A DNA stretch of 54,148 nt. It comes from a virus (lineage: Duplodnaviria; Caudoviricetes). Made by a program: the position numbers and the translations under genes. The notes beneath the pieces are model-generated. The model saw nothing but the letters and a program-made list of their open reading frames with translations, was not told the origin of the DNA and made no database searches. The DNA is taken from positions 1 through 54,148 of the IMG/VR virus record IMGVR_UViG_3300026907_000021; one strand, 5' to 3'. This document shows, one piece after another, positions 1-54,148 of this stretch. The first letter of the stretch is position 1, and every line of letters starts with the position of its first letter.

Positions 1-127
1 TCTGGGGGAACAGTCAACGGAAAGTCACAAATCGTCACTCAGAACATCACCAACGGTGGTGAAGTGAGTAACTTCTGCATCTTCAACTCGACGGACGATG
101 CCAGCGGGTTCCGGTATGTTGGGAGTG
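1..127 (+). repeat. 127-bp exact direct repeat, copy 1 (copy 2 at 51263-51389)
   Basis: tctgggggaa...gttgggagtg identical at both places, diverging immediately after. Confidence 0.97.
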
Positions 128-2531: not shown

Positions 2532-3611
2532 ATGTTGAAGGCTGATGTCGCGCGCTCGATCGAGCGAGTTGCGAGCGTGCACGGTATTGACCCGGCGGCG
2601 CTGAAGGCTGTTGTCGAGGTCGAGAGCAACGGCGTTGTTTTTGCGGATATCGACGGCAAGGAAATGCCGATCATCCGTTTCGAAGGCCATTACTTCGACC
2701 GGCTGGTGACGGCCTCGCGTCGTGATGAAGCTCGGCGCCTCGGGCTTGGATCTCCGACCGTCGGTGGCGTGAAGAACCCTGCATCGCAGAAAGCCCGCTG
2801 GCAGCTTCTTGGGCGGGCGATGACGATCGATAAGCAGGCAGCGCTTGAAAGCACGTCGTTTGGCGTGGGGCAGGTTATGGGGAGCCATTGGAAGGCGCTG
2901 GGCTATCCATCCGTCATTGATCTGTTCGAAGCGGCCCGCAGCGGCGTAGAGGGCCAGGTTGATCTGATGGTTCGGTTCATCAAGGCGAACAACCTTTTCG
3001 GCGCTCTCAACCGCAAGGATTGGGCCGGGTTCGCCCGCGGCTATAACGGCCCCGCCTACAAGAAGAACGCCTACGACACGAAGATGGCCGCCGCCTATGA
3101 GCGGTATTCCAAGAAGGAGCCGCCTGTATCTGGTGCCGCAGGCATGTTGCGCCTCGGCTCCAAGGGGGCGGGGGTTCGGGAAATTCAGGTGCTGCTCACG
3201 CGCGCCGGCTATCCTGTTACGTCCGATGGCGACTTTGGACCTGCCACGGATCGCACCCTTCGCCGGTTTCAGGATGAGAATGGTCTGAACGCTGACGGCG
3301 TGGCCGGTCCGCAGACCATGCGCAAGCTGAAAGAGTTTCAGGTGTCGCCGGATGAAAAGCCAGGCAACCTCGGGATCGCTCAGGTGCCAGAGGTCAAGAA
3401 CGCGGCCCGCAACTTCGGCCCACTGGCGCTGGTGACTGCCGCGCGCGACCAGATTGCCGAACTCGCCACCTATGTCACCGGCATCAACTCGGATCTGGCG
3501 AACACCATTGCGAACGGGATGCTGGCAGTCTCCGGGGCCATAGGTCTCGGCCTTACGATCTGGGGAGTCTACGGCTGGTGGAAGAGCAAGCAGACGGTGG
3601 AACAGGCATGA
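2532..3611 (+). CDS. Endolysin: N-acetylmuramidase (DUF3380-like) + peptidoglycan-binding domain + C-terminal hydrophobic segment
   Basis: AVVEVES, IRFEGHYF, SFGVGQVMG, FARGYNGP motifs; DGDFGPAT...FQ...DGVAGPQT PG-binding motif. Confidence 0.92.
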   Translation: MLKADVARSIERVASVHGIDPAALKAVVEVESNGVVFADIDGKEMPIIRFEGHYFDRLVTASRRDEARRLGLGSPTVGGVKNPASQKARWQLLGRAMTIDKQAALESTSFGVGQVMGSHWKALGYPSVIDLFEAARSGVEGQVDLMVRFIKANNLFGALNRKDWAGFARGYNGPAYKKNAYDTKMAAAYERYSKKEPPVSGAAGMLRLGSKGAGVREIQVLLTRAGYPVTSDGDFGPATDRTLRRFQDENGLNADGVAGPQTMRKLKEFQVSPDEKPGNLGIAQVPEVKNAARNFGPLALVTAARDQIAELATYVTGINSDLANTIANGMLAVSGAIGLGLTIWGVYGWWKSKQTVEQA

Positions 3612-3922
3612 TGTGGGCTCTTATCCCCAACTGGCTGAAAATCGCTGCTGCTGGCCTTCTGTGTGCCGCTGCGCTGGTGTCTGGCTCCTATTTCGCCGGC
3701 AAGCGTGTCCAGCGCGCCGAGATGGCCACAGAGACACTCGCGAAGACCGTCGAAGTTCTCCAATCAAGGAACGAAACCAATGTGGAAATCACTTCTTCCG
3801 CTGCTGCTGAGTTGTGCGCTCATTACGGGCTGCCAGACAAAGAACGCGTCGAATGTGTGCGCCGGTTGGCAAAAGCTTCAGATGGGAACAGCAGAAACGG
3901 CAGTCTATCTCTCCCAGAATGA
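3608..3922 (+). CDS. i-spanin (Rz-like)
   Basis: N-terminal TM helix; ATG overlaps endolysin stop; overlaps a lipoprotein ORF. Confidence 0.8.
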   Translation: MMWALIPNWLKIAAAGLLCAAALVSGSYFAGKRVQRAEMATETLAKTVEVLQSRNETNVEITSSAAAELCAHYGLPDKERVECVRRLAKASDGNSRNGSLSLPE

Positions 3923-3989
3923 CAGGGGGCTCGCGAACGGTATCGCGAGCCACAATGTTCACGGAAAGCGTCAAGGCTGCTGGGATTGA
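3780..3989 (+). CDS. o-spanin (Rz1-like lipoprotein) with replaced C-terminus
   Basis: MWKSLLPLLLSCALITGC lipobox; overlaps the i-spanin in another frame; homologue at 51516. Confidence 0.82.
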   Translation: MWKSLLPLLLSCALITGCQTKNASNVCAGWQKLQMGTAETAVYLSQNDRGLANGIASHNVHGKRQGCWD

Positions 3990-4573
3990 ATATCTGGCCA
4001 AAATCTACCAGTTCTTAGGCCGGCAATGTGGCCTCTGCTGACGCCGAATAACCTCGCTAGTTCCTTCTGTGTCATGTTTTTGGCTGATCGTATGAAGATC
4101 ACATCTTCTTTAGTCAACTTTGCTGATGGTGATCTATCTCCCCGAACAGCAGTGCCGTGGATGAGTTTATCGGCCTCGTTTTCGGCAGGAGTTTTCCATG
4201 ACAGGTGGCGAGGATTGCAACATTTCCGCTTCCCGCAAGAGTGGGCTGCTTGGTGCATTTCAGTTGGCGGGTCACCATAGGCAATAAGGCACATATACCT
4301 GTGAGCATGTTCCTTTCTGCTCTTCTTAGCGCCCTTTAAGGAAATCCGTCCATAGCCTCTAGTGCCGATACCGAATGGCCAGTCTAGGCAGTCATCTCCA
4401 CCATAGTTGACATGGCTCCTGATCCACTCGACGGGCACGTTGAACCAAGGAGTACGCTCTGCCTCTCCATGCCGCATCCAGCGTTGGTAATGAGCGCTAC
4501 ACATCCCGCGCCGAGCACCGCTGCGTCTATCCATAGAATTTGTGCATCCACCAACTGAACAGGTCACGAACAA
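3971..4573 (-). CDS. HNH homing endonuclease with C-terminal HTH
   Basis: CLDWP...GYG...AHR...AAHSCG..CCNPRHL.W....N..D; QKELARLFGVSR HTH. Confidence 0.88.
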   Translation of the reverse strand: MFVTCSVGGCTNSMDRRSGARRGMCSAHYQRWMRHGEAERTPWFNVPVEWIRSHVNYGGDDCLDWPFGIGTRGYGRISLKGAKKSRKEHAHRYMCLIAYGDPPTEMHQAAHSCGKRKCCNPRHLSWKTPAENEADKLIHGTAVRGDRSPSAKLTKEDVIFIRSAKNMTQKELARLFGVSRGHIAGLRTGRFWPDIQSQQP

Positions 4574-4597
4574 GCCTCCAAGGATTAATCATGGAAA

Positions 4598-4626
4598 ATC
4601 ATAGCAATTGTGCGTGCGGCATTCAA
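4598..4626 (-). promoter_or_regulatory. Sigma70-type promoter of the HNH gene
   Basis: TTGAAT-17 bp-TATGAT on the minus strand, then a GGAGG RBS. Confidence 0.6.
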
Positions 4627-4627
4627 C

Positions 4628-4731
4628 AAATTAACACCGAAACCGCAGTCAAGATCACGATGGACGACCGGCAGTTCGCTAACCAGGTCGCGTCCCATAA
4701 CGCCCACGGCGTGAAACAGAAATGCTGGTGA
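4628..4731 (+). pseudogene. Displaced original 3' end of the spanin genes
   Basis: 4638-4731 nearly identical to 51626-51719 (ETA.KITMDDRQFANQVASHNAHGVKQKCW) but has no 5' part. Confidence 0.88.
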
Positions 4732-4741
4732 GGATTGCACA

Positions 4742-5473
4742 ATGATCGGTCTTGGACTTGGCCTGTCTCTCGGGGTGGCGGGGCGTGGTGTTGGTAGGGC
4801 TGAGCGGTTTACCGTCCCCATCGTCAACTCCGGCGTTGCCATCATCTCTCCCGGCCGTCTGCTCTCCGTCAAGGTCACGGCTGGAACCCCTCCTCTGATC
4901 TCAATCTACGACAGCCCGTTCACTGGTGCCGGCATCATGCCTTATCAGGGCACGCTGGCGAATGGAGAGAAAGCTTCCGTAGATATTCCTATCGTCAACG
5001 GCATCTATGTGGATATGACTTCTGCCCTCGGCCCCGAACTCGTCACCAACGGCAATTTCAACGCTGATGTCTCGGGCTGGGCGCCTCAATTGACGGGTGC
5101 CACCATCACATGGCGTGACGGTAAGATGGAATTGTTCGGCGGCTCTGGCGGTGGTCGCGCAACGCAAACCGTCTCCGGCCTTGAGATTGGCGAAACCTAT
5201 GTGTTCCGCACCACTATGCTTGAGCCGAGCGCAAACTCGATTTCATGCCGTCTTACCACGGATCCGGCAGGATCAACCACAGGTCAGATTTACGGGTCTG
5301 CCAATGTCTCAGCAGGCCAGTTGCTCCCGATTGTCACCTCATTCGTCGCCGCCGCCACGAGCATCACCATTGCAGGCTCCGCATCGGCTAGCGTCACGGG
5401 ATGCTTCGACAAGATCAGCCTTCGTAAGCAGACGCAGGCCACAGGAACCGTCGAACTGGAGTTTGCGGCATGA
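4742..5473 (+). CDS. Putative head-spike fibre (allele A) with carbohydrate-binding-like domain
   Basis: MIGLGLGLSLG N-terminus resembles the RcGTA head-fibre anchor peptide; ELVTNGNF..DVSGW CBM-like start. Confidence 0.65.
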   Translation: MIGLGLGLSLGVAGRGVGRAERFTVPIVNSGVAIISPGRLLSVKVTAGTPPLISIYDSPFTGAGIMPYQGTLANGEKASVDIPIVNGIYVDMTSALGPELVTNGNFNADVSGWAPQLTGATITWRDGKMELFGGSGGGRATQTVSGLEIGETYVFRTTMLEPSANSISCRLTTDPAGSTTGQIYGSANVSAGQLLPIVTSFVAAATSITIAGSASASVTGCFDKISLRKQTQATGTVELEFAA

Positions 5474-32227: not shown

Positions 32228-32425
32228 TCAACGACTGTAGAATAATCGCTGCTTTTGATCGTGCTCGAAGGCTAGAGCTTTTTCCTTATCTGAGAAGAGC
32301 CGCCTCTGCGTAACGACGCCATTCTCGGTAACTGTGATTAGCCATCCGTCCGATGTCTTCTCGTTGGATACGCCGTCTTTGATTTTACCTTCGTCCATCC
32401 CATCCCCCAAGGTTACCCATGCCAT
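32228..32425 (-). CDS. Small antisense hypothetical protein
   Basis: Compact ORF opposite the late operon; start uncertain. Confidence 0.4.
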   Translation of the reverse strand: MAWVTLGDGMDEGKIKDGVSNEKTSDGWLITVTENGVVTQRRLFSDKEKALAFEHDQKQRLFYSR

Positions 32426-32892
32426 TACTCAAGAATGCACGGCACGAGACATTCGCGCAAGGGTTGGCGAAGGGGATGAGTGCGACGGATGCCTATGCCG
32501 CGGCAGGGTATAAAGGCGACCGTAAGGCCGCATCGAACCTATGGACAAATATGGACGTCAAGGATCGCGTGACAGAACTGCAGTCCAAGGCCATCAAGAA
32601 GGTCGAAATCACAGTAGACAGCCTCGCACAGGAGCTTGAAGAGGCTCGCGCTATTGCCCTGTCCGAAAAGCAGTCGAGCGCGGCTGTGAGCGCGACAATG
32701 GGCAAGGCGAAGCTCTTTGGTTTGGGTGTCGAGAACCGTCGGATGAGCGGCACCATCCAGATCGTGAACATAACCATCGAACAGTTGAGCGTTCTGACCC
32801 GCGATGAACTTACTCTCCTCGAAGCAGCCTATCCCGTTCTCGAAAAGCTCAGGCTTGTGGGAAGCGATACAAGCGGCGAAGGCGAGGCATGA
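32419..32892 (+). CDS. terS: Terminase small subunit
   Basis: LKNARHE.FAQ.LA.G.SAT.AY..AGY. Confidence 0.88.
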   Translation: MPLLKNARHETFAQGLAKGMSATDAYAAAGYKGDRKAASNLWTNMDVKDRVTELQSKAIKKVEITVDSLAQELEEARAIALSEKQSSAAVSATMGKAKLFGLGVENRRMSGTIQIVNITIEQLSVLTRDELTLLEAAYPVLEKLRLVGSDTSGEGEA

Positions 32893-35131: not shown

Positions 35132-36502
35132 ATGAACGCGATATCACGCATTACCAATGCGGCTTCGCGCCGGCTGGATCACATGTTTCAAGGGTTCTTC
35201 ACGAACACAAAACATAATTACGGGAAAGACTTCGGCTATCCCGATGTCCTCACGTTCGATCTGCTCTACCGGATGTATCGCCGCAACGGCATTGCGACGG
35301 CCGCAGTAGACAAAACCGCGCTCAAGACATGGCAGGACACGCCATTCTTGCTTGAACAAGAGCGTGACGGGTCACAGAAGGGCAAGAGCAAGGAAACGGA
35401 ACTAGAGAAGGAAATTCGCCTCAAGTTCGCGTCGATGCGCTTATGGGCCAAGCTGGCCGAAGCTGACCGCAAGGCAATGGTGGGCGGATACTCTGGCGTC
35501 ATCCTGCGATTGAGGGATGGCAAACGGTTCGACCAACCAGTTGATCGCGTGGGCGGCGGTCTCAAAGGTCTCTATCGCATTGATCCCGTATGGGCTGGGC
35601 AGTTGAAGGTTTCCGATTGGAACACTGACACGACCTCGGAAACATACGGTGAGCCGACGATGTACGAGTTCAACGAGGCGAATGTAGCCGACGAGAACCC
35701 GAACAAGCGCAGCCTTCGCATCCATCCTGACAGGGTGTTGATCTGGTCAGACGATGGGACGGTAAACGGACGCTCTCTGCTGGAGCCGGGCTATAACGAT
35801 CTGATCGACCTCGAAAAGATCAAGGGCGCCGGCGGTGAGGGCTTCTGGAAGAACGCCAAGAGCGCTCCGGTGCTGGAAATGCCGGCCGATGTGCGCATCG
35901 CGGAAATGGCGAAGGCCATGGGCGTTACGGTTCAGGACATTGCCGACAAGATGAACGAGCAGGTGGCTGACTTCCAGAAGGGCTTCGACCAGATGCTGAT
36001 GCTGCAGGGCATGCAGGCAAAGACGCTCGGCGTCACCCTGCCGAGCCCGGAACACTTCTTTGCGGCGCCACTCCAATCGTTTGCAGCCTCTGTAACCATG
36101 CCGGTGAAAATACTGGTGGGAATGCAGACAGGGGAGCGCGCCTCGACTGAGGACGCAGACGAATGGAACCAGACCAACATGGCGCGCCGGGTGAACATCA
36201 CTCATCCGAACGTCATGGAGTTTGTCACCAGACTGGTGACATGGGGAATACTGCCGGAGAAGGACTGGTTTCTCGATCAGGCCGACCTCACCGAAAGCTC
36301 GATGTCCGAGAAGGTCGACCGCGCCAACAAGATGGCTGACACCAACCAGAAGATGGGCAACTCGACATACGTCTTCACGGATGACGAAATCCGCGCCGCA
36401 GTCGGTTACGAGCCGCTGACCGACGCCGAGAAATATCGCGACGAGACCGACGACGAGACGCAAGCCGCTCTCGGAAAACCGGCACCAACACAAGAGGAAT
36501 AG
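35132..36502 (+). CDS. Portal protein (DUF1073-like)
   Basis: Size and position after terL; MYRRNGIA, YGEP..Y, IHPDRV, LVGMQTGERAS. Confidence 0.88.
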   Translation: MNAISRITNAASRRLDHMFQGFFTNTKHNYGKDFGYPDVLTFDLLYRMYRRNGIATAAVDKTALKTWQDTPFLLEQERDGSQKGKSKETELEKEIRLKFASMRLWAKLAEADRKAMVGGYSGVILRLRDGKRFDQPVDRVGGGLKGLYRIDPVWAGQLKVSDWNTDTTSETYGEPTMYEFNEANVADENPNKRSLRIHPDRVLIWSDDGTVNGRSLLEPGYNDLIDLEKIKGAGGEGFWKNAKSAPVLEMPADVRIAEMAKAMGVTVQDIADKMNEQVADFQKGFDQMLMLQGMQAKTLGVTLPSPEHFFAAPLQSFAASVTMPVKILVGMQTGERASTEDADEWNQTNMARRVNITHPNVMEFVTRLVTWGILPEKDWFLDQADLTESSMSEKVDRANKMADTNQKMGNSTYVFTDDEIRAAVGYEPLTDAEKYRDETDDETQAALGKPAPTQEE

Positions 36503-47817: not shown

Positions 47818-48216
47818 TCAGCTTTCGCCGTGGAGGAGATTCATTCCTTTGATGGCGTCGGTCAATGACGAATAGGGAGCGCTCCGTTGCGAAATGCCAC
47901 CACCAGGGAAATGAGCAACTGGCATCCACGACCTCTCAGACTTGGTGACCCAGACAAGGGTTCCAATCGGATAGGGGTCCACATTCGGCGATGTTGGGTC
48001 CACAGATGGTGGATGCCCTCCGGGCAAGGGCTCGTCACTGGCGTATTCGTGAATCTTTGCCAAAGCGTCCGCCAGTGATGGTTTGTAGTGCTTTCCGACA
48101 GGAAGTGATGTGGATGGTACTTGAGAGCCGGGAGGGAAAACATTGAAAAATGACCAACCTCCATTCTGCTTCAAGAAAACAACGGCTGCCCCAGCCGGGT
48201 ATGCAAATTTTGTCAT
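47818..48216 (-). CDS. Moron-like protein with an internal domain duplication
   Basis: Antisense; RBS ggagg; two YP.G..V...K....W...FP.G...SL.DA units. Confidence 0.65.
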   Translation of the reverse strand: MTKFAYPAGAAVVFLKQNGGWSFFNVFPPGSQVPSTSLPVGKHYKPSLADALAKIHEYASDEPLPGGHPPSVDPTSPNVDPYPIGTLVWVTKSERSWMPVAHFPGGGISQRSAPYSSLTDAIKGMNLLHGES

Positions 48217-48280
48217 GTAAACCTCCAACGCTCGATCCTTTGCGGCAACCTATGCGGCAAATTTGCGAAGGTAAAGAATA

Positions 48281-48685
48281 ATGAGCAGATTTAGAGTTGT
48301 CGAAGCTACGCTGGCTGCGGAGCTTGCGAAGCCGTATGCCTATGGCACAGCCGATTGCTTCTTTCTGGGTTGCGCGATGATTGACGCTCTCACGGGCGCC
48401 GAGACGGCCAAGAAGTATCTCGGCAGCTATCGCACGCTCGCAGGTGCCCAGAAAGCGCTCAGGAAGCGCAAACACAAGTCGCTGGTGACATTCTTCGCCG
48501 CCGAGCTTGATCAGCAACCAAAGGGCGCAGCAGAGGCGCGGATGGGCGATCTTGTTATTCTGCGATTGGATGATGGCGCCGAGCATGTCGGCATCTGCCT
48601 CGGCCTTCGCTTTGTTACGAAAACACCCGTTGGCCGTCAGGATTTCGGCCTCTCGGAAGTCACCGCCGCCTTTCACATCGGATAA
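48281..48685 (+). CDS. NlpC/P60-like tail-tip assembly protein
   Basis: YG.ADC and GD...EHVGIC Cys/His dyad. Confidence 0.75.
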   Translation: MSRFRVVEATLAAELAKPYAYGTADCFFLGCAMIDALTGAETAKKYLGSYRTLAGAQKALRKRKHKSLVTFFAAELDQQPKGAAEARMGDLVILRLDDGAEHVGICLGLRFVTKTPVGRQDFGLSEVTAAFHIG

Positions 48686-48691
48686 TCGCCA

Positions 48692-51389
48692 ATGATTTTT
48701 ACAGCTATCGGCACGCTGCTTGCGGGCACGGCGACGATATCGCTATTCGGTGCGACTGTTTCACTCGCATCGGTCATTGGCGGCGCACTCGCGTTCGGCA
48801 CCAGCCTTGCGTTCAGCTACCTAAAACGTCCCAAGAAGCGGACGTACGCTGCCGTACAAGGTGAAACCAAATATGGCGGTGATGTTGATGTTGAAACCCT
48901 GTTTGGCCATGGCAAGACCAAAGGTCAGCGCTCATATTATGCGAAGTGGGGGCAGGGGAATAAGTTCAACGCTGAGGTTTTCGATCTAGCTAACGGCTGG
49001 TGCGATGGCCTCGAAAACTATTGCTTCGTCTATGGCGAACGCCGCGCGCTGATCCAGGTCGGCAACGTCGGCGGGGAAGCCGCGCACTATCACGTTGATG
49101 GCTTCAGCGACAAGATATCGATCCGGTTCTATGATGGCCGTCCCGGTCAGCCAGTGGATGCTAAGCTGGTTGCGGACACGGCGACCCTCGGCAACGTATG
49201 GAAGAACACGAGCGTCAACGCTGGCCTATGCTATGTGATTGTAGAGCGCCTTTATGACAGCGCGCTTTTCGAGAAGGGCAAGCCCGAGTTTGAATGGGTG
49301 ATGCGCGGTCTGCGCGAATATGACCCCAGAAAGGATTCGACGGTTGCCGGCGGCTCTGGCCCGCAACGCATCAACGATCCTGCAACGTGGTTGTTCACAC
49401 GCAACCCGGCTGTACACCGCCTGAATTATCAGCTTGGCCTCAGGGCATTGAACTCCGGCCGCACACTGATTGGTGAGGGCAAGTCGCTCGGTCAACTGGA
49501 TCTGTCAACGTACTTCGTCGCGATGAACGTCTGCGACACCATCAAGGCCGGGAAGCCAACGTATGAATGCGGTCTGTGGGTAACCGGCGCTGACGATCAC
49601 ACGGAAATCCTCAAGGAATTTGAGGATGCGATGGCAGGCTACGGTCTCAACCGTCGTGGCCTGTCTGGCGTGATTGCTGGCGCACCGCAAATACCGGTGA
49701 TGGAGATCACCAAAGACGATCTCGATATCGGCAGGGACAGTGAATACCAGTTCAAGAAGTCTGCTTTCGAGCGGTATAACCATCTCTCCGGTCAGTTCCT
49801 TTCGATCGAGGATAACTGGAACCCGCAGAGCCTGAAGCCGGTCTACTCGAACGCCGACGTGGCCGCTGACGGTCGCAACCGGCAGACAAGCAACGACTTT
49901 TTGCAGGTCACAGACCCGGATATCGCCCAATACCTCCTGACGATCCGGTACCGCCAGAACCGCATGGGCGGCACGGCTGCTTTGCCTGTCAGTCTCCGCG
50001 TTGGCCTGAAGGTTCAGGAAGGCGAGTGGATCGTCTGGAATGGCCGCACATGGATGATCTCGGAGTGGATTTGCGACGAGAGCTTCAACATCACTCTGAA
50101 GCTGTCGGAGACCAGCGCTGACATCTACGATGACGGCGGCATTGATCCGGGCCCGGTGGTCATCCCGCCGACGCCACCGATAAACCCCTCGATCCTCACG
50201 ACCGTTCAGAACTTCACGGTCGAAACCGGGATGATCGAAGGTGCTGAAGGTTTCCAGACGCCGGTTCTCCGGTTCACCTGGGATCCCCCGCAAGACCCGT
50301 CGATTGTCGAAGTCATCTTCGAATACCGGATCAGCGGCCAGACGACTGTCTATACCGACGTCTGCAAAGACCCGGAGGCTGGCGTTTACCAGACCTCAAA
50401 GGATGTGATTTCGGGTGTGTTTTACAACGCTCGAGCCACGATCAGGACGGTGCCAGACAGGTTTAAGACATTCACGGCTTGGATTACTTCGGCCAACATC
50501 ACCGGCAATCAGACGGTGTTTGCAGAGATCGATCTGTCAAACATTGAAGAAGCGCTCGGATGGCTCCGCAACAGCACCAGAACCGCACAGGACGCCATAG
50601 ACGGCCTGATTGCGGCGCAGATGGAAATGGCGACGGTTGCCTATAAGGACACCCGTAATCTCGCCAGAGAACTGTCTGTGGAACTTGGCGCGGCCCGCGC
50701 TGAATATCGCGAAGACATCCAGCTCGCGGTGAATGAAACCATGGCAGTCGCTGGCAAGGTGGAGACACTGACGGCGGCGCTGGGCGGCAACACGGCATCG
50801 ATCAACATCGCTTGGGCGGCTATTGCTGCCCCGTCGGGCTATGCTGCTCGATACGGCATCACTGCCGCCGTCAACGATGAGCAGTACCGCTCGGCCGTGT
50901 TTCTCATGGATGTGCCGTCAAATCCGTCCTTGCCTACCCGCATCGTGATGCAGGCCGGTCAGGTTGTGATGATCAGTGACGACGATCTGACGATAAAGCG
51001 CCCGTTCGTATTCCAGTCTGGTGTCCTCTATCTCGACGAGGTGAAGGTCAACCAATTGTCGGCCCTATCGGCAGTTCTGGGCAACGTCGATATTTCGAAC
51101 GCCTACATCGGCACGTTGACGGTCGGTACATCCAACATCGAACCTGGCGCGATCACGAGGGTGGATAGCAACTCTCGAACTGACACAGGGACGTTCGATG
51201 TCACTGTCAGTCACGGCGTCGGCTCACCAACTGTGCGTCTTGATATCGCAAGCAAGCTGATTTCTGGGGGAACAGTCAACGGAAAGTCACAAATCGTCAC
51301 TCAGAACATCACCAACGGTGGTGAAGTGAGTAACTTCTGCATCTTCAACTCGACGGACGATGCCAGCGGGTTCCGGTATGTTGGGAGTG
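48692..51389 (+). CDS. Central tail tip / host-specificity protein (gpJ-like); continues at 128-252
   Basis: YDPRKDSTV.GGSG.QR...P.TW....NPA; FnIII-like region; C-terminal coiled coil. Confidence 0.88.
51263..51389 (+). repeat. 127-bp exact direct repeat, copy 2
   Basis: Identical to 1-127. Confidence 0.97.
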
Positions 51390-51670
51390 GCCTTCTCTGC
51401 GCTGTTCTGCTGGCCTCTGGCTCCTACTGGATTGGTAAGCGCGAAGGTCGCTCACAGGCGGCGACAGAGGCGCTAGCCAAGACCGTCGAAGTTCTCCAAT
51501 CAAGGAACGAAACCAATGTGGAAATCACTTCTTCCGCTGCTGCTGAGTTGTGCGCTCATTTCGGGCTGCCAGACGAGGAACGCATCGAATGTGTGCGCAG
51601 GCTGGAGCAAGCTGACGCCGACGCTCGAAACCGCGCTCAAGATCACGATGGACGACCGGCAGTTCGCTAA
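51390..51670 (+). CDS. i-spanin allele B, 5'-truncated
   Basis: AKTVEVLQSRNETNVEITSSAAAELCAH identical to the 3608 protein. Confidence 0.8.
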
Positions 51671-51719
51671 CCAGGTCGCGTCACACAACGCCCATGGCGT
51701 GAAACAGAAATGCTGGTGA
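51516..51719 (+). CDS. o-spanin allele B (HNH-free)
   Basis: MWKSLLPLLLSCALISGC lipobox. Confidence 0.82.
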   Translation: MWKSLLPLLLSCALISGCQTRNASNVCAGWSKLTPTLETALKITMDDRQFANQVASHNAHGVKQKCW

Positions 51720-51729
51720 GGATTGCACA

Positions 51730-53526
51730 ATGATCGGTCTTGGACTTGGCCTGTCTCTCGGGGTGTCTGGTAAGGGCGCCTCTCTGCCTAACATGGCCCC
51801 GGTCACAAGCTGGCGCGTACCCGTGCTCGCTGCTTACGACAGCCTTGGTAATAGCGTTCTCGTGGCGGCTCTTGTTGCCTCAGGCGCCGACAAATCCATA
51901 CCCTCATATCCGATCGCCGCAACCACGACCAGAACCGTTGCTTGGAAGCTGGGAGCCATCGCCGCTCCGGGTGGTCTGCTTTCATTCGTGTTCGAGGGAG
52001 CAAGCGCAACTGTGTCGGCCGCGTACAGCGACGATAGCACCGATGGTTCTAACGGCACGTGGACGGCAATTTCATATTCTCTGGTTTCTCCGACCGCATT
52101 CTACACAGGGCGCCGCCAACCAATTCTGTTGCCTGCCGCAGCATCTGGGCGATGGGTGAGGCTGGTGATTAACAATCCCGCAGCTTCGACAGTCTATTCC
52201 GTTTATCCATTGATCCATCAGTTGCAGGCCAGCAAGGTTCGCAATGATGCGCAGTTGATTATGGGGGCATCACAGACAACGAACGGTTTCCTGTCGCTTG
52301 TGTATGAGGATGCAATACGGTCTGCGTTCCCAACGTCCGACCCCATTGTCTTCAACCACGGGGAGGCTGGCGAAACTGCATCCGGGATATTGGCGAACTG
52401 CGCACCAGCGATTTCAGCTTTCAATGGCTTCTGCCCTCGTGTGTATCTCGATAACCTGATTGGGAACGATATCACGGGCGCCCAGCCAATCAGCGACGAT
52501 TCTCCGTCGAGCCTGACGACCATGCGAAGCCTTGTCGACCAGATCATTGCTGCCTTCGCCGGATGGAACATATTTACTTCGGACATCACCTTCAGGGAAT
52601 ATACCGGGGTTACGCCATCCGCACCCGACAATGGCTCTCTGCCTTATAACCAGCAGATCATGTGGCCTGCGATCCTTGCAGACAACCCCGATTGCTACGA
52701 CAGGGCGCTCGGCGTTTCCCGCATCAATCTATATTCGTGGGCGTTGTTCAATCGCAACTGGCTTCAGGACCAGATCCACTACAGCAATTACTCGACCTAT
52801 CGCGCCGAACTAGTTCGCACGATGGAGGGCAGGGTCCGCAATTCGAAATGGCCGGACAGTTATGCGCTGATGCTGGTCAAGCGGCTTGAAAGCGAACGGC
52901 TGTACCACCTTAAGCGTGAGGCTGGATATGCAGTCAGCTCTCTCCCTGCGTCCAGTACAAAGACAGCGCTTCAGGCTCGTATTGACGCAGTGACCAATCT
53001 GTTGCCGTCCCGCATGAAGATAAGCCATGGACCGGATGCGAACGCACCGCCAGCGCCGTGGACCAATACCGCGAGAACAACCGTCGGCGCCGCTATCACG
53101 GACATCATTACGGAGGATGGCTTCAAGACCTCCTACGTCTGGAATATCTCCGTTGCCGGAAATGGTGCTTTTGCCTTCGGTGCCCAAGGCGCCGCAGTGG
53201 GCGCTGATTTCCCCGATAGTGCATTGCTCGGCTATCTCTCTGACACCGTGGACAGCTTGGCAGTCAAGCTCACCAACGGTGATGCTTCGGAGCGCTACCG
53301 GATCAAGGCGATGGGTTCCCGCGCTGGCACAGGCTCTCGCCTACAGGATTTCGTAGCTGGCGGGGTAACGCAAACCGTCAACGTCCTGGGCAATCTCACA
53401 AGCGTTGCAGATTTCACCGGTCTTGCGCCGACTGCCGGCGAAGTCGAGATGACCATCAACCGCGGGACCGGCAACACTACGGCGGTTTATCTCAACGGCG
53501 TGATCCTCGAAGCGAACGCCGCCTGA
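51730..53526 (+). CDS. Putative head-spike fibre (allele B) with SGNH hydrolase domain
   Basis: MIGLGLGLSLGV anchor; GASQT, G.AG.T, IGNDI, DQIH SGNH blocks. Confidence 0.7.
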   Translation: MIGLGLGLSLGVSGKGASLPNMAPVTSWRVPVLAAYDSLGNSVLVAALVASGADKSIPSYPIAATTTRTVAWKLGAIAAPGGLLSFVFEGASATVSAAYSDDSTDGSNGTWTAISYSLVSPTAFYTGRRQPILLPAAASGRWVRLVINNPAASTVYSVYPLIHQLQASKVRNDAQLIMGASQTTNGFLSLVYEDAIRSAFPTSDPIVFNHGEAGETASGILANCAPAISAFNGFCPRVYLDNLIGNDITGAQPISDDSPSSLTTMRSLVDQIIAAFAGWNIFTSDITFREYTGVTPSAPDNGSLPYNQQIMWPAILADNPDCYDRALGVSRINLYSWALFNRNWLQDQIHYSNYSTYRAELVRTMEGRVRNSKWPDSYALMLVKRLESERLYHLKREAGYAVSSLPASSTKTALQARIDAVTNLLPSRMKISHGPDANAPPAPWTNTARTTVGAAITDIITEDGFKTSYVWNISVAGNGAFAFGAQGAAVGADFPDSALLGYLSDTVDSLAVKLTNGDASERYRIKAMGSRAGTGSRLQDFVAGGVTQTVNVLGNLTSVADFTGLAPTAGEVEMTINRGTGNTTAVYLNGVILEANAA

Positions 53527-53533
53527 CACATCA

Positions 53534-53560
53534 CCCCCGACCTATGGCCGGGGTTTCTTT
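53534..53560 (+). terminator. Intrinsic terminator
   Basis: ccccga-cctatgg-ccgggg hairpin followed by tttcttt. Confidence 0.55.
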
Positions 53561-54020
53561 AATCGCATCTCAAGGGCAGGCTTACCGGATGGCGGAGAAT
53601 ACAAACATGCAGATAAGTCGCGCTCCGAAATTGGAATGGAACCTCAATACAATAATCCAGATTGTCACCCTCGTCGGAATGGTCGGGGGTGGCATTGCAA
53701 TCTGGGTGGACAAAAGCCGTGACATTGAAGACTTGCAGGGCTGGCGGACGAACCACGAGCAGCTTCACAAGGAGCGCCTTGTGGACGTTAAGGCGAACGA
53801 GGCAAGGAACGACGAGAAATTCAAGAGCGTCGAGGCTGATGTTCGAAAGCTCACCAGCCTAACAGACAGCCTGAATTTCCGCCTCACCACCAACGAGAAC
53901 GCTACGACGGGCATCGCTTCGACGGTCAAGGACATCCAGACCCAGCTATCGCAACAGTCTGGTGACCTTCGCGAGATCAAGGTTATCTTGCAGCGGATGG
54001 AGAAAGGCCAGCGGCCTTGA
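53544..54020 (+). CDS. Single-TM coiled-coil protein (allele B; start may be 53589)
   Basis: TIIQIVTLVGMVGGGIAIW TM; same position as 7167-7817. Confidence 0.65.
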   Translation: MAGVSLIASQGQAYRMAENTNMQISRAPKLEWNLNTIIQIVTLVGMVGGGIAIWVDKSRDIEDLQGWRTNHEQLHKERLVDVKANEARNDEKFKSVEADVRKLTSLTDSLNFRLTTNENATTGIASTVKDIQTQLSQQSGDLREIKVILQRMEKGQRP

Positions 54021-54148
54021 ACATGCCCAGTTCCGGGTAATGCTCAACGCAGTGCCACGATGGCTTGTCTACCTTCGACCGGCTGAATCCAAAACTTCCC
54101 CAGCGCGAACAGTTCGGGTGCTCGCACCAGTGGTTCTCATGTATGCCG
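54017..54148 (-). CDS. Partial homologue of 7803-7985 (both ends undefined)
   Basis: Reads ENHWCEHPNCSRWGSFGFSRSKVDKPSWHCVEHYP. Confidence 0.75.

What the first reader, a model, noticed from the sequence alone, without database searches (positions are those of the whole stretch)
3870..4731. HNH cassette that replaces the 3' ends of both overlapping spanin genes; the empty allele is in the same window
Seen: allele B (51516-51719) encodes the o-spanin ...SKLTPTLETALKITMDDRQFANQVASHNAHGVKQKCW with no HNH. In allele A the gene diverges near 3870 into a homologous but recoded end (QKLQMGTAETAVYLSQNDRGLANGIASHNVHGKRQGCWD). This is followed by an antisense HNH with its own promoter, then the stranded original end (4628-4731). 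The overlapping i-spanin frame also gains a new C-terminus. Inference: an intron-less homing element invades an essential dual-coding locus by supplying a working, cleavage-resistant replacement 3' end.
Basis: partly seen in the sequence, partly recalled or inferred. Interest (0 to 1): 0.78.

Follow-up and report, generated by a model that had tools for sequence, protein, structure and literature searches.

The report
HNH cassette swaps phage spanin ends
A mobile HNH nuclease gene sits at the end of a phage's two overlapping lysis (spanin) genes, bringing a foreign but working gene end and leaving the original end stranded behind it, a layout known from fungal mitochondria.

Summary
The sequence features are real. 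Compared with a fully syntenic HNH-less relative (L013) and with allele B, window 3878-4637 (760 nt) replaces 12 nt. The insert holds a divergent spanin 3' end, an antisense HNH/His-Me endonuclease gene with an HTH domain, and about 70 nt of leader. The native end (4638-4731) lies stranded behind it and is 95% identical to HNH-less alleles.

- The "recoded" end is a natural minor allele (type 2). It occurs without HNH or remnant in L016, L070 and L087, and beside a 56%-identical HNH in L193.
- "Allele B" is not a second locus of this genome. Positions 1-127 equal 51263-51389, so the window is a 51,262-bp circle plus a 127-nt overlap plus an appended variant branch. That branch has about 11x depth against 50-63x, and its i-spanin is truncated.

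Three results support mobility. The same HNH plus remnant ORF recurs on contigs from three other sources. An unrelated HNH (L041) shows the same layout in miniature. The junction lies in the most conserved, dual-coding stretch.

Best reading: intronless homing with co-conversion and one-sided illegitimate repair. Cleavage is untested. This is a new variant of a known kind.

The parts
2532..3611 (+). Endolysin (N-acetylmuramidase plus PG_binding_1, with a C-terminal hydrophobic tail). It marks the lysis cassette. Its stop overlaps the i-spanin start (ATGA).
   Evidence: Pfam PF11860 3.3e-51 and PF01471 5.9e-16; sequence
3608..3922 (+). i-spanin, 104 aa, with an N-terminal transmembrane segment. 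Its last ~17 codons (from 3872) belong to the type-2 module and end ...SRNGSLSLPE.
   Evidence: ORF list; phrog_12535 2.4e-21; same C-terminus in the HNH-less L016
3780..3989 (+). Hybrid o-spanin, 69 aa, with lipobox LITGC. It lies in the +1 frame and overlaps the i-spanin (overlapped architecture). The 5' half is common core and the 3' half is type 2.
   Evidence: all invariant family columns kept; phrog_37499 8.7e-11
3735..3871 (+). Conserved core shared by all close relatives. Inferred to be the left homology arm.
   Evidence: 92% identical to B and 90% to L013, L004 and L016
3872..3989 (+). Type-2 ('recoded') 3' module of both spanin frames.
   Evidence: 55% identical to B, 54% to L013 and L004, 86% to L016; motif class LANGIA
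3878..4637 (.). The inserted segment as defined against empty sites. These 760 nt stand where L013 and B have 12 nt.
   Evidence: GC 0.475-0.535 against 0.56-0.64 in the flanks
3971..4567 (-). HNH/His-Me-finger endonuclease with a C-terminal HTH, 198 aa from a GTG 7 nt after GGAGG (200 aa from the TTG at 4573). Its last codons are antisense to the o-spanin's QGCWD-stop codons.
   Evidence: Invariant H/N/C columns are kept in a 12-sequence alignment. The AlphaFold model has pLDDT 84.6, and its best PDB fold matches are I-HmuI 1u3e (E 6.7e-4) and I-PpoI.
4598..4626 (-). Promoter-like site upstream of the HNH gene (TTGAAT-17-TATGAT, with TG before the -10).
   Evidence: consensus match only
4592..4731 (+). 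46-aa ORF. It has 15 cassette-encoded codons (MENHSNCACGIQQIN) fused to the stranded native end, and AAGGA lies 6 nt upstream. It has no signal peptide or lipobox.
   Evidence: the same ORF is in cluster P0133/P0136/P0137/P0138
4638..4731 (+). Stranded type-1 o-spanin 3' end (remnant). Inferred to be the right homology arm together with 4732-4782.
   Evidence: 95% identical to B, L013 and L004, and 59% to the phage's own type-2 end
3893..3904 (+). GAAACGGCAGTC. It matches GAAACCGCAGTC at 4640-4651 in 11 of 12 positions. This microhomology sits at the right junction.
   Evidence: sequence and alignment
4742..5473 (+). Downstream gene (243 aa). Its RBS GAGGA lies on the remnant's stop codon. Only its first ~41 nt are shared with the gene downstream of allele B.
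   Evidence: 89% aa identity in L012 and L013
51390..51719 (+). Allele B. It consists of a 5'-truncated type-1 i-spanin (to 51670, fused in frame to the tail gene) and a complete type-1 o-spanin (51516-51719), with no HNH.
51263..51389 (+). Exact 127-nt copy of window 1-127. It marks the end of the circular 51,262-bp genome plus its k-mer overlap. What follows (51390-54148) is an appended variant branch.

Best explanation
This is a free-standing HNH (His-Me finger plus HTH) homing-type endonuclease gene. Its home is the very 3' end of the o-spanin gene of Rhizobiaceae-type phages, where it lies convergent with and overlapping that gene.

In its native setting it is linked to a minor natural allele ('type 2') of the shared 3' module of the overlapping i- and o-spanin genes. 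In the window's phage, the unit [type-2 end + HNH] has been copied into a type-1 spanin locus.

The left junction is a homologous crossover in the highly conserved dual-coding core (before 3872). The right junction is an illegitimate join at a 12-nt microhomology (GAAACNGCAGTC). This left the recipient's own type-1 end (4638-4731) stranded behind the HNH gene.

The hybrid spanins are predicted to work, because every invariant residue is kept and the same i-spanin tail exists in HNH-less phages. The stranded end keeps the ribosome-binding context of the next gene. I infer that it now also serves as right-hand homology for further spread into type-1 loci whose downstream genes differ.

Shown: the anatomy, the breakpoints, the presence/absence polymorphism, the recurrence of the layout, and the nature of the enzyme.

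Inferred: that the HNH cuts type-1 DNA near B 51600-51630, that the type-2 sequence is immune to it, and that double-strand-break repair rather than passive recombination made and spreads the arrangement.
For: 1. Insert boundaries agree in two independent comparisons. Against B they are 3877|4638. Against the fully syntenic L013 they are the same, with homology running 1.4 kb to the left and 2.5 kb to the right.

2. Identity steps sharply from 92% (3735-3871) to 55% (3872-3989) against B. The stranded end is 95% identical to B, L013 and L004 but 59% to the phage's own new end.

3. The enzyme is well supported. Evidence is Pfam HNH_3 and HTH_3, phrog_59 at 7.5e-25, and conserved catalytic columns. 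The best fold matches are the homing endonucleases I-HmuI and I-PpoI.

4. The gene is dispensable and patchy. Only 2 of 109 spanin loci carry any HNH of this superfamily. HNH+/HNH- pairs exist at the same site: A against L013, L193 against L070, and L041 against L031.

5. L193 is the only viral-contig HNH above 50% identity, 1 of the 80 loci listed. It also converges on and overlaps a type-2-like o-spanin end.

6. The layout recurs. The HNH cluster P0002/P0134/P0135 is 84-85% identical to the window's. The remnant-ORF cluster P0133/P0136/P0138 shares its longest-contig lengths: 3353 (JGI), 8666 (ENA) and 2198 (Logan). All have the same junction N|TETA. The cassette-encoded 15 residues match at 11 of 15, while the stranded part matches at 30-31 of 31.

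7. L041 is an independent miniature of the layout. An HNH only 29% identical was inserted as 647 nt at the o-spanin stop. The new end reads GCCGGGTGTTGGTGA. The original GCGGGCTGCTGGAAATGA is stranded on the far side and is identical to 4 HNH-less relatives.

8. The junction lies in the dual-coding overlap, the most conserved stretch of the locus, at 0.899 against 0.769 and 0.730.

9. Cassette GC is lower than that of the flanks.

10. In run X1, the likely source sample, the HNH-bearing form has contig depth 54.9 and the type-1 branch has 11.2. Both alleles therefore coexist.

11. Established knowledge fits. The T4 review PMC2988022 describes intronless homing with co-conversion, and one-sided illegitimate double-strand-break repair at microhomologies (passages read).
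Against: - No cleavage or inheritance data exist.
- The type-2 end is not specific to the cassette. Three of five type-2 loci (L016, L070, L087) lack both HNH and remnant.
- The HNH-type-2 association is statistically weak and biased by how the loci were found. The Fisher p of 0.002 counts L193, which was fetched through the HNH query. It also counts the window, which is the case under study. In the spanin-fetched sample alone, HNH accompanies 1 of 4 type-2 loci against 0 of about 94 type-1 loci.
- Mosaicism is common here without any nuclease. The i-spanin 5' module of A is 91% identical to L004 but 65% to B. The downstream genes differ between A, B and L016. Type-2-like ends sit on four different N-terminal backgrounds.
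- The wider HNH family is not tied to spanins. Only 3 of 188 HNH ORFs converge on a lipobox ORF. None of 19 loci taken from 400 family genomes has a spanin nearby.
- The DNA of the three other HNH+remnant contigs was not seen. Their co-location is inferred from matching contig lengths only.
- The similarity to the o-spanin left of the remnant is not significant, with 203 of 2000 shuffles reaching the observed score. The cut site is therefore inferred from the junction alone.
Confidence: 0.6

Rival explanations
1. Passive mosaic recombination. An illegitimate crossover between a type-2 phage that happened to carry an HNH gene and a type-1 phage produced a partial duplication. The HNH is a passenger, or has another job, and neither made nor spreads the arrangement.
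For: - Module exchange is frequent in this locus without any HNH. This holds for the i-spanin 5' modules, the downstream genes, and the type-2 ends found on four N-terminal backgrounds.
- Type-2 ends occur without HNH in 3 of 5 loci.
- The 12-nt microhomology fits any illegitimate join.
Against: - In the calls that could detect a duplicated o-spanin end, every one seen flanks an HNH gene: the window, the P0133 cluster contigs, and L041.
- The motif scan found a second copy in only 1 of the sources scanned, the window itself.
- Two unrelated HNH genes (29% identity) show the same layout.
- The same junction persists across HNH variants that are 16% diverged, while the stranded part stays 97-100% identical. 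That is easier to explain if the right arm is renewed from recipients.
Confidence: 0.27
2. Assembly chimera. The A locus was stitched by the assembler from reads of a type-2/HNH phage and a type-1 phage present in the same sample.
For: - The sample does hold a type-1 variant, and the window demonstrably carries one assembler-made join (the 127-nt repeat and appended branch).
Against: - An independent re-assembly of run X1 (Logan contigs) shows the insert-bearing joint at depth 54.9. That is the depth of the main genome, not the 11.2 of the type-1 branch.
- The stranded copy differs from B at three listed positions, 51683, 51686 and 51695, at depth 58.8.
- The remnant ORF, which spans the right junction, is recorded in three other data sources.
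Confidence: 0.03
3. A packaging or other housekeeping HNH. HK97-type phages carry an HNH next to the lysis and terminase genes that assists cos cleavage (recalled from memory, not checked in any call). This one could be such a helper rather than a selfish gene.
For: - It lies directly after the lysis cassette, where such genes sit in HK97-like genomes (recalled).
Against: - It is antisense to the late genes and carries an HTH DNA-binding domain.
- It lies about 28 kb from the small terminase (32419-32892) and portal (35132-36502) genes.
- It is absent from the syntenic relatives L012 and L013 and from 107 of 109 spanin loci.
Confidence: 0.05

Closest known systems
Free-standing homing endonucleases of T-even phages (SegB/E/F/G, MobE): intronless homing with marker exclusion (PMC2988022 passages read; PMC2790892 and PMC2330249 seen only as search listings and abstract starts)
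   Same: - A nuclease gene stands between or beside genes, not in an intron.
- It shows presence/absence polymorphism among related phages.
- Linked flanking sequence of the donor replaces that of the recipient.
- The cut site can be some distance from the gene.
- One-sided illegitimate repair at microhomologies has been documented.
   Different: - Here the co-converted flank is the end of two overlapping reading frames.
- The recipient's own end persists as a stranded copy.
- The host is a temperate-type siphovirus of alpha-proteobacteria.
- No activity has been shown.
Mobile endonuclease ORFs (mORFs) of fungal mitochondria that carry a foreign C-terminal piece of the host gene: Allomyces macrogynus atp6, and Glomus atp6/atp9/cox2/nad3 (PMC3630166, passages read; the original 1994 Allomyces paper was not read)
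   Same: - The three-part layout is the same: host gene core, then inserted divergent C-terminal, then endonuclease ORF, then displaced native C-terminal.
- The native piece matches close relatives, and the inserted piece is far more divergent.
- The hybrid gene is the expressed one.
   Different: - The mORFs are LAGLIDADG or GIY-YIG enzymes, usually on the same strand and often in phase with the host gene.
- Here the enzyme is an HNH on the opposite strand, overlapping the gene end.
- The target here is a dual-coding phage lysis locus.
GIY-YIG homing endonuclease gene between the i- and o-spanin genes of the T5-like phages Shivani and phiR201 (PMC6139136, passages read)
   Same: - A homing endonuclease gene of about 700 bp has entered an overlapped spanin pair.
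- Both spanins stay complete, with changes only at the ends that touched the insertion.
   Different: - That insertion lies at the i-spanin end / o-spanin start and turns an overlapped pair into a separated one.
- No stranded copy or foreign allele was described in the passages read.
- The nuclease family is different.
I-HmuI (HNH homing endonuclease of Bacillus phage SPO1, PDB 1u3e) and I-PpoI
   Same: - These are the best fold matches of the model (E 6.7e-4 and 2.6e-3; probability 1.00).
- They share the His-Me finger core, and I-HmuI also has a C-terminal helix-turn-helix.
   Different: - Sequence identity is 12-19% and TM-scores are only 0.30-0.36.
- Both are intron-encoded.
- The N-terminal Cys-rich module of the window's protein has no counterpart in them.
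Integrating elements that bring a replacement 3' end for the gene they enter (prophages in tRNA genes; e14 in icd). Recalled from memory, no call.
   Same: - The incoming DNA restores a working gene end.
- The old end is left at the far junction.
   Different: - Those elements use an integrase and att sites.
- Here there is no integrase, the element is 0.76 kb, and it moves by recombination between phage genomes.

Membership tests
HNH / His-Me finger endonuclease (Pfam HNH_3) | Match to the family profile above its curated cut-off | tested here: met
   PF13392 scores 28.8 bits against a cut-off of 24.8. phrog_59 'HNH endonuclease' matches at 7.5e-25.
HNH / His-Me finger endonuclease (Pfam HNH_3) | Conserved catalytic His/Asn and metal-binding Cys/His columns are intact | tested here: met
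   H109, C111, C116, H121, N130, D133 and H137 are invariant in 12 sequences, including the window's. Which of these residues is catalytic is recalled, not tested.
HNH / His-Me finger endonuclease (Pfam HNH_3) | His-Me finger fold | tested here: met
   The model has pLDDT 84.6. The top PDB matches are I-HmuI and I-PpoI with probability 1.00, though TM-scores are only 0.30-0.36.
Free-standing homing endonuclease gene (intronless homing) | Presence/absence polymorphism at one fixed site among related genomes | tested here: met
   Three pairs show it: A against L013, L193 against L070, and L041 against L031.
Free-standing homing endonuclease gene (intronless homing) | Donor-type flanking sequence is linked to the gene (co-conversion tract) | tested here: inconclusive
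   A type-2 module adjoins the HNH in the window and in L193. However, type 2 also occurs without HNH in 3 of 5 loci, and the association test is biased by how the loci were found.
Free-standing homing endonuclease gene (intronless homing) | Site-specific cleavage of the endonuclease-less allele, with the enzyme's own allele resistant | not testable with these tools
   This needs purified protein and DNA substrates.
Free-standing homing endonuclease gene (intronless homing) | Nuclease-dependent over-transmission in mixed infection | not testable with these tools
   This needs phage crosses. The only related observation is that both alleles coexist in run X1.
mORF-type element carrying a replacement C-terminal (fungal mitochondria) | The order is: host gene core, inserted divergent C-terminal in frame, endonuclease ORF, displaced native C-terminal | tested here: met
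mORF-type element carrying a replacement C-terminal (fungal mitochondria) | The native piece resembles close relatives, and the inserted piece is much more divergent | tested here: met
   95% against 54-55%
mORF-type element carrying a replacement C-terminal (fungal mitochondria) | A LAGLIDADG or GIY-YIG ORF on the same strand, often in phase with the host gene, in a mitochondrial genome | tested here: not met
   The enzyme is of the HNH family, lies on the opposite strand, and sits in a phage genome. It therefore works like a mORF but is not a member of that group.
Two-component spanin, overlapped architecture | An i-spanin with an N-terminal transmembrane segment. An o-spanin lipoprotein with a lipobox Cys starts inside the i-spanin in the +1 frame and ends beyond it. 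The pair lies next to the endolysin. | tested here: met
   ORFs and sequences; endolysin immediately upstream. The type-1 o-spanin matches phrog_1275 'Rz-like spanin' only weakly, at 1.9e-4. The definition is taken from PMC6139136. Function was not tested.

The most novel reading that the evidence does not exclude
The stranded native end is not debris. It is the element's portable right-hand homology arm. Together with the ultra-conserved dual-coding core as the left arm, the 0.76-kb cassette would form a self-contained homing unit. Such a unit could enter any type-1 spanin locus whatever mosaic genes lie downstream. It would destroy its own target by swapping in the type-2 end. It would thereby drive allele replacement of two overlapping lysis genes in wild phage populations. 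The HNH+ and HNH- forms seen together in one sample, at about 55x and 11x, would be an invasion caught in progress. The L041 case suggests that the same solution has arisen twice with unrelated HNH genes.
Probability: 0.3. Interest if true: 0.75.

Novelty: new variant of a known kind. Interest (0 to 1): 0.6.

Why it matters
Homing endonuclease genes that are not inside an intron or intein cannot normally enter a coding sequence without destroying it. The known workaround is to bring a spare gene end. According to the passages I read, this has been described for fungal mitochondria.

Here the same solution appears in phages, and in a locus where two essential lysis genes share the same DNA in different frames. 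One foreign module therefore has to satisfy both frames.

If the nuclease is active, the case gives three things.
- A natural example of a selfish gene driving allele replacement in a lysis cassette.
- An explanation for a sharp mosaic boundary inside spanin genes.
- A compact, testable homing unit of 0.76 kb with defined arms.

The finding also carries a practical warning. Viral contigs can hold an appended strain variant after a hidden k-mer overlap, and this can mimic a second locus.

Tried and rejected
**Searches that found nothing useful**
- blastn of 3560-4860 against 50,697 phage records gave no match.
- A single-protein HNH scan of viral contigs found no relative.
The DNA around P0002 and P0133 was therefore never seen.
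- In 400 genomes of the family around G001, 14 carry an HNH homologue at E <= 1e-25 (best 48% identity). One genome was not scored. None of the 19 fetched loci has a spanin or endolysin homologue within the flanks.

**Analyses that failed or were negative**
- A scan for short duplicated o-spanin ends used 18-mers with up to 4 mismatches over 102 loci. It found nothing, not even the two known cases, so it was too insensitive and is not used as evidence. Its shuffle controls hit 11 of 1530 times.
- Possible residual o-spanin homology left of the remnant (4574-4639) is not significant, with 203 of 2000 shuffles reaching the observed score.
- I tested whether the wider HNH family prefers spanin ends. 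Only 3 of 188 HNH ORFs in 160 loci converge on a lipobox ORF, so the idea is rejected for the family at large.
- Whether any X1 contig bridges 51389|51390 cannot be told. 23 pieces and 2 loose ends were not listed.

**Literature**
- Searches brought up no phage report of an endonuclease cassette with a replacement gene end and a stranded native end, among the listings I looked through. In PMC10448857 the words 'remnant' and 'pseudogene' occur 0 times.
- These are word searches of an open-access library, not proof that the layout is unpublished.
The spanin database tables of PMC6139136 may hold relevant cases.

**Tools unavailable**
- The look-up of encoding contigs was stated to be closed and was not called.
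Full report
**What the window is**

The window is a whole viral contig of 54,148 bp. Its first 127 bases are repeated exactly at 51263-51389. The 992-aa tail gene that starts at 48692 runs through that repeat. It continues properly at window 128 and ends at 252.

In the second copy, the sequence after 51389 jumps into the middle of an i-spanin gene, with no start codon. Note that 51,262 + 127 = 51,389. That is a circular genome plus a 127-nt k-mer overlap, followed by 2,759 extra bases.

Laying public contigs on 48000-54148 showed three things.
- In run X1, the best holder and probably the source, the main genome has contig depth 49.5-63.4. The stretch 51736-53590 has depth 11.2.
- The X1 and X16 contigs that end at 51389 run on into the bases of window 128 onward.
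- In X18, a 50-kb contig places 3,667 other bases between 51387 and 51729. It then matches 51729-53553 with 37 differences.

The real type-1 phage therefore has the usual fibre-endolysin-spanin stretch there. 'Allele B' is a co-occurring strain variant appended to the contig, or at most a deletion derivative. It is not a second spanin locus of this genome. It still serves as an HNH-less comparison sequence.

**The locus**

- The endolysin at 2532-3611 has muramidase and PG_binding_1 domains.
- It is followed by an overlapped two-component spanin pair.
- The i-spanin is at 3608-3922 and has an N-terminal membrane segment.
- The o-spanin is at 3780-3989 in the +1 frame and has lipobox LITGC.
- The naming rests on this architecture as defined in PMC6139136 and on weak profile hits.

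**The insertion**

Against B, homology runs over 3652-3877 and 4638-4782. Against L013, an HNH-less relative syntenic for 1.4 kb on the left and 2.5 kb on the right, the breakpoints are the same. A 2477-3877 matches L013 1698-3098, and A 4638-7168 matches L013 3111-5639. So 760 nt (3878-4637) stand where empty sites have 12 nt.

Identity of A to B by segment:

| Segment | Identity |
|---|---|
| 3735-3871 | 92% |
| 3872-3989 | 55% |
| 4640-4731 | 95% |

The two copies of the end within A are 59% alike. An 11-of-12 repeat, GAAACGGCAGTC at 3893 and GAAACCGCAGTC at 4640, sits at the right junction. The insert is poorer in G+C than its flanks, at 0.475-0.535 against 0.56-0.64.

**The enzyme**

- The antisense ORF is 198 aa from GTG 4567, which lies 7 nt after a GGAGG.
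- It matches Pfam HNH_3 and HTH_3 above their cut-offs and phrog_59 at 7.5e-25.
- It keeps every invariant column of a 12-member alignment.
- Its AlphaFold model has pLDDT 84.6. The closest folds are the homing endonucleases I-HmuI and I-PpoI, though with low TM-scores.
- Its last codons (..IQSQQP-stop) are the antisense of the o-spanin's QGCWD-stop codons, a 19-nt overlap.
- Homologues at 55-59% identity end in the same QSQQP-like tail. I read this as a hint that they sit in the same place. Only L193 could be checked.
- One promoter-like site lies upstream, at 4626-4598. This is weak evidence.
- The gene is about 28 kb from the small terminase and portal genes, so it is not a packaging HNH of the HK97 kind (that comparison is recalled from memory).

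**The 'recoded' end is a natural allele**

A motif scan over all fetched loci and the window gave 103 o-spanin C-terminal hits.
- 95 are type 1 (FANQVA). This count includes B and the window's stranded copy.
- 5 are type 2 (LANGIA): the window's A locus, L016, L070, L087 and L193.
- 3 are intermediate: L069, L080 and L082.

L016 has the type-2 end at 86% nucleotide identity to A, and the same i-spanin tail ..SRNGSLSLPE. It has no HNH and no remnant, and the next gene overlaps the o-spanin stop. L070 and L087 also lack any HNH within 3 kb.

Between the types, conserved residues often use different codons. For example, Ser is AGC in one and TCA in the other. This indicates old divergence rather than purposeful recoding. 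Type-2-like ends occur on four N-terminal backgrounds, each of which also has type-1 partners, and the switch falls right after C(A/D)GW.

The end is not a product of the cassette.

**The HNH is nevertheless linked to this end and to duplicated ends**

- L193 holds the only viral-contig HNH above 50% identity (56-57%), 1 of 80 loci listed. It also converges on and overlaps a type-2-like o-spanin. Against the type-2 HNH-less L070, it differs by a 709-nt against 61-nt replacement at the o-spanin's last ~25 nt.
- The Fisher test (2 of 5 against 0 of 95, p = 0.002) overstates the case. L193 was found through the HNH, and the window is the index case.
- More telling is that the same layout recurs. 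The HNH variant cluster (84-85% identical) and the 46-aa remnant-ORF cluster share longest-contig lengths of 3353, 8666 and 2198 in three different sources.
- All have the same junction. The 15 cassette-encoded residues match at 11 of 15, and the stranded part matches at 30-31 of 31.
- A stranded copy that stays pristine while the cassette diverges fits a right arm that is renewed from each recipient. Selection on the small ORF is an alternative. It is less likely, because the ORF's cassette-encoded head is the least conserved part.

**An independent miniature: L041**

- L041 carries an HNH only 29% identical to the window's. It is inserted as 647 nt exactly at the stop of a type-1 o-spanin.
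- The gene now ends GCC GGG TGT TGG TGA.
- The original GCG GGC TGC TGG AAA TGA lies stranded on the far side of the HNH. It is identical to four HNH-less relatives (L028, L031, L040 and L097).
- The new end resembles the allele of the more distant L090.
- So two unrelated HNH genes entered the same gene family with the same trick.
- In both cases the stranded piece carries the start context of the next gene.

**Target**

Among 12 close type-1 loci, mean pairwise identity is 0.899 in the dual-coding overlap. It is 0.769 in the i-spanin-only part and 0.730 in the o-spanin-only part. The junction (L012/L013 3098|3111) lies in the overlap. A sequence constrained in two frames is a good homing target.

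**Mechanism proposed**

Shown: the anatomy, the breakpoints, the polymorphism, the recurrence and the enzyme class.

Inferred:
- The HNH cuts type-1 DNA near the junction.
- The left end invades a donor through the conserved core.
- Synthesis copies the type-2 end and the HNH gene.
- In the founding event the right end was joined at the 12-nt microhomology. This is one-sided illegitimate double-strand-break repair, as described for T4 (PMC2988022).
- Afterwards the stranded end plus the first ~41 nt of the next gene (4638-4782, 95% to B) gives ordinary right-hand homology.

**Comparison with what is known**

- The closest match in layout is the fungal mitochondrial mORF that carries a foreign C-terminal and displaces the native one (PMC3630166).
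- The closest match in setting is intronless homing in T-even phages.
- Also close is the GIY-YIG gene between T5-like spanin genes (PMC6139136).
- My three literature searches brought up no phage case with a replacement end plus a stranded native end.

**Verdict**

- Observation: confirmed.
- Interpretation: partly supported.
- Novelty: new variant of a known kind.
- Interest: 0.6.

Noticed in passing
window 1-127 and 51263-51389; 51390-54148: An exact 127-nt repeat begins at base 1 of the contig. The record appears to be a 51,262-bp circular genome, plus its k-mer overlap, plus a 2.76-kb branch of a lower-depth strain variant. The source classes the record as 'linear' and 100% complete.
   Followed up: yes
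L041:3120-3880: An unrelated HNH gene (29% identical, 197 aa, antisense) is inserted exactly at the o-spanin stop. The last four codons are re-supplied in different codons, and the original 18 nt are stranded in front of the next gene's start.
   Followed up: yes
L093:1907-2575: A third HNH gene (222 aa, antisense) lies between the endolysin and the i-spanin of a Pseudorhizobium prophage. It is another nuclease site in the same lysis cassette.
   Followed up: partly
L204 (2399-5662) and L230 (952-2978): There are two or three tandem HNH paralogues beside an endolysin or spanin. In L204 one of them converges on a small lipoprotein ORF of another family.
   Followed up: no
window 4742-4782 vs 51730-51770: The genes downstream of alleles A (243 aa) and B (598 aa, with a weak tail-fibre profile hit) share only their first ~41 nt (MIGLGLGLSLGV) and then diverge completely. 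This is a second sharp mosaic boundary, right after the spanins.
   Followed up: partly
window 3608-3734: The 5' module of the i-spanin is itself mosaic. A is 91% identical to L004, but 65% to B, 71% to L016 and 76% to L013.
   Followed up: partly
window 51605-51626 (run X1): Besides the main insert-bearing joint (depth 54.9), a second joint, 51613->51626, appears at depth 5.55. This may be another insert-bearing variant in the same sample. Its inserted sequence was not shown.
   Followed up: no
window 4592-4731: The stranded end is part of an open 46-aa ORF with AAGGA 6 nt upstream. Gene callers recorded it in four variants from four data sources. It has no signal peptide, so it cannot be an o-spanin. 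It is unknown whether it is translated or does anything.
   Followed up: partly
window 53983-54147 (-) and L016:3962-4132 (-): Small Cys/His-rich ORFs (..CEHPxCSxWG..C.EHYP..) are conserved downstream of the lysis region in both phages. They were not examined.
   Followed up: no
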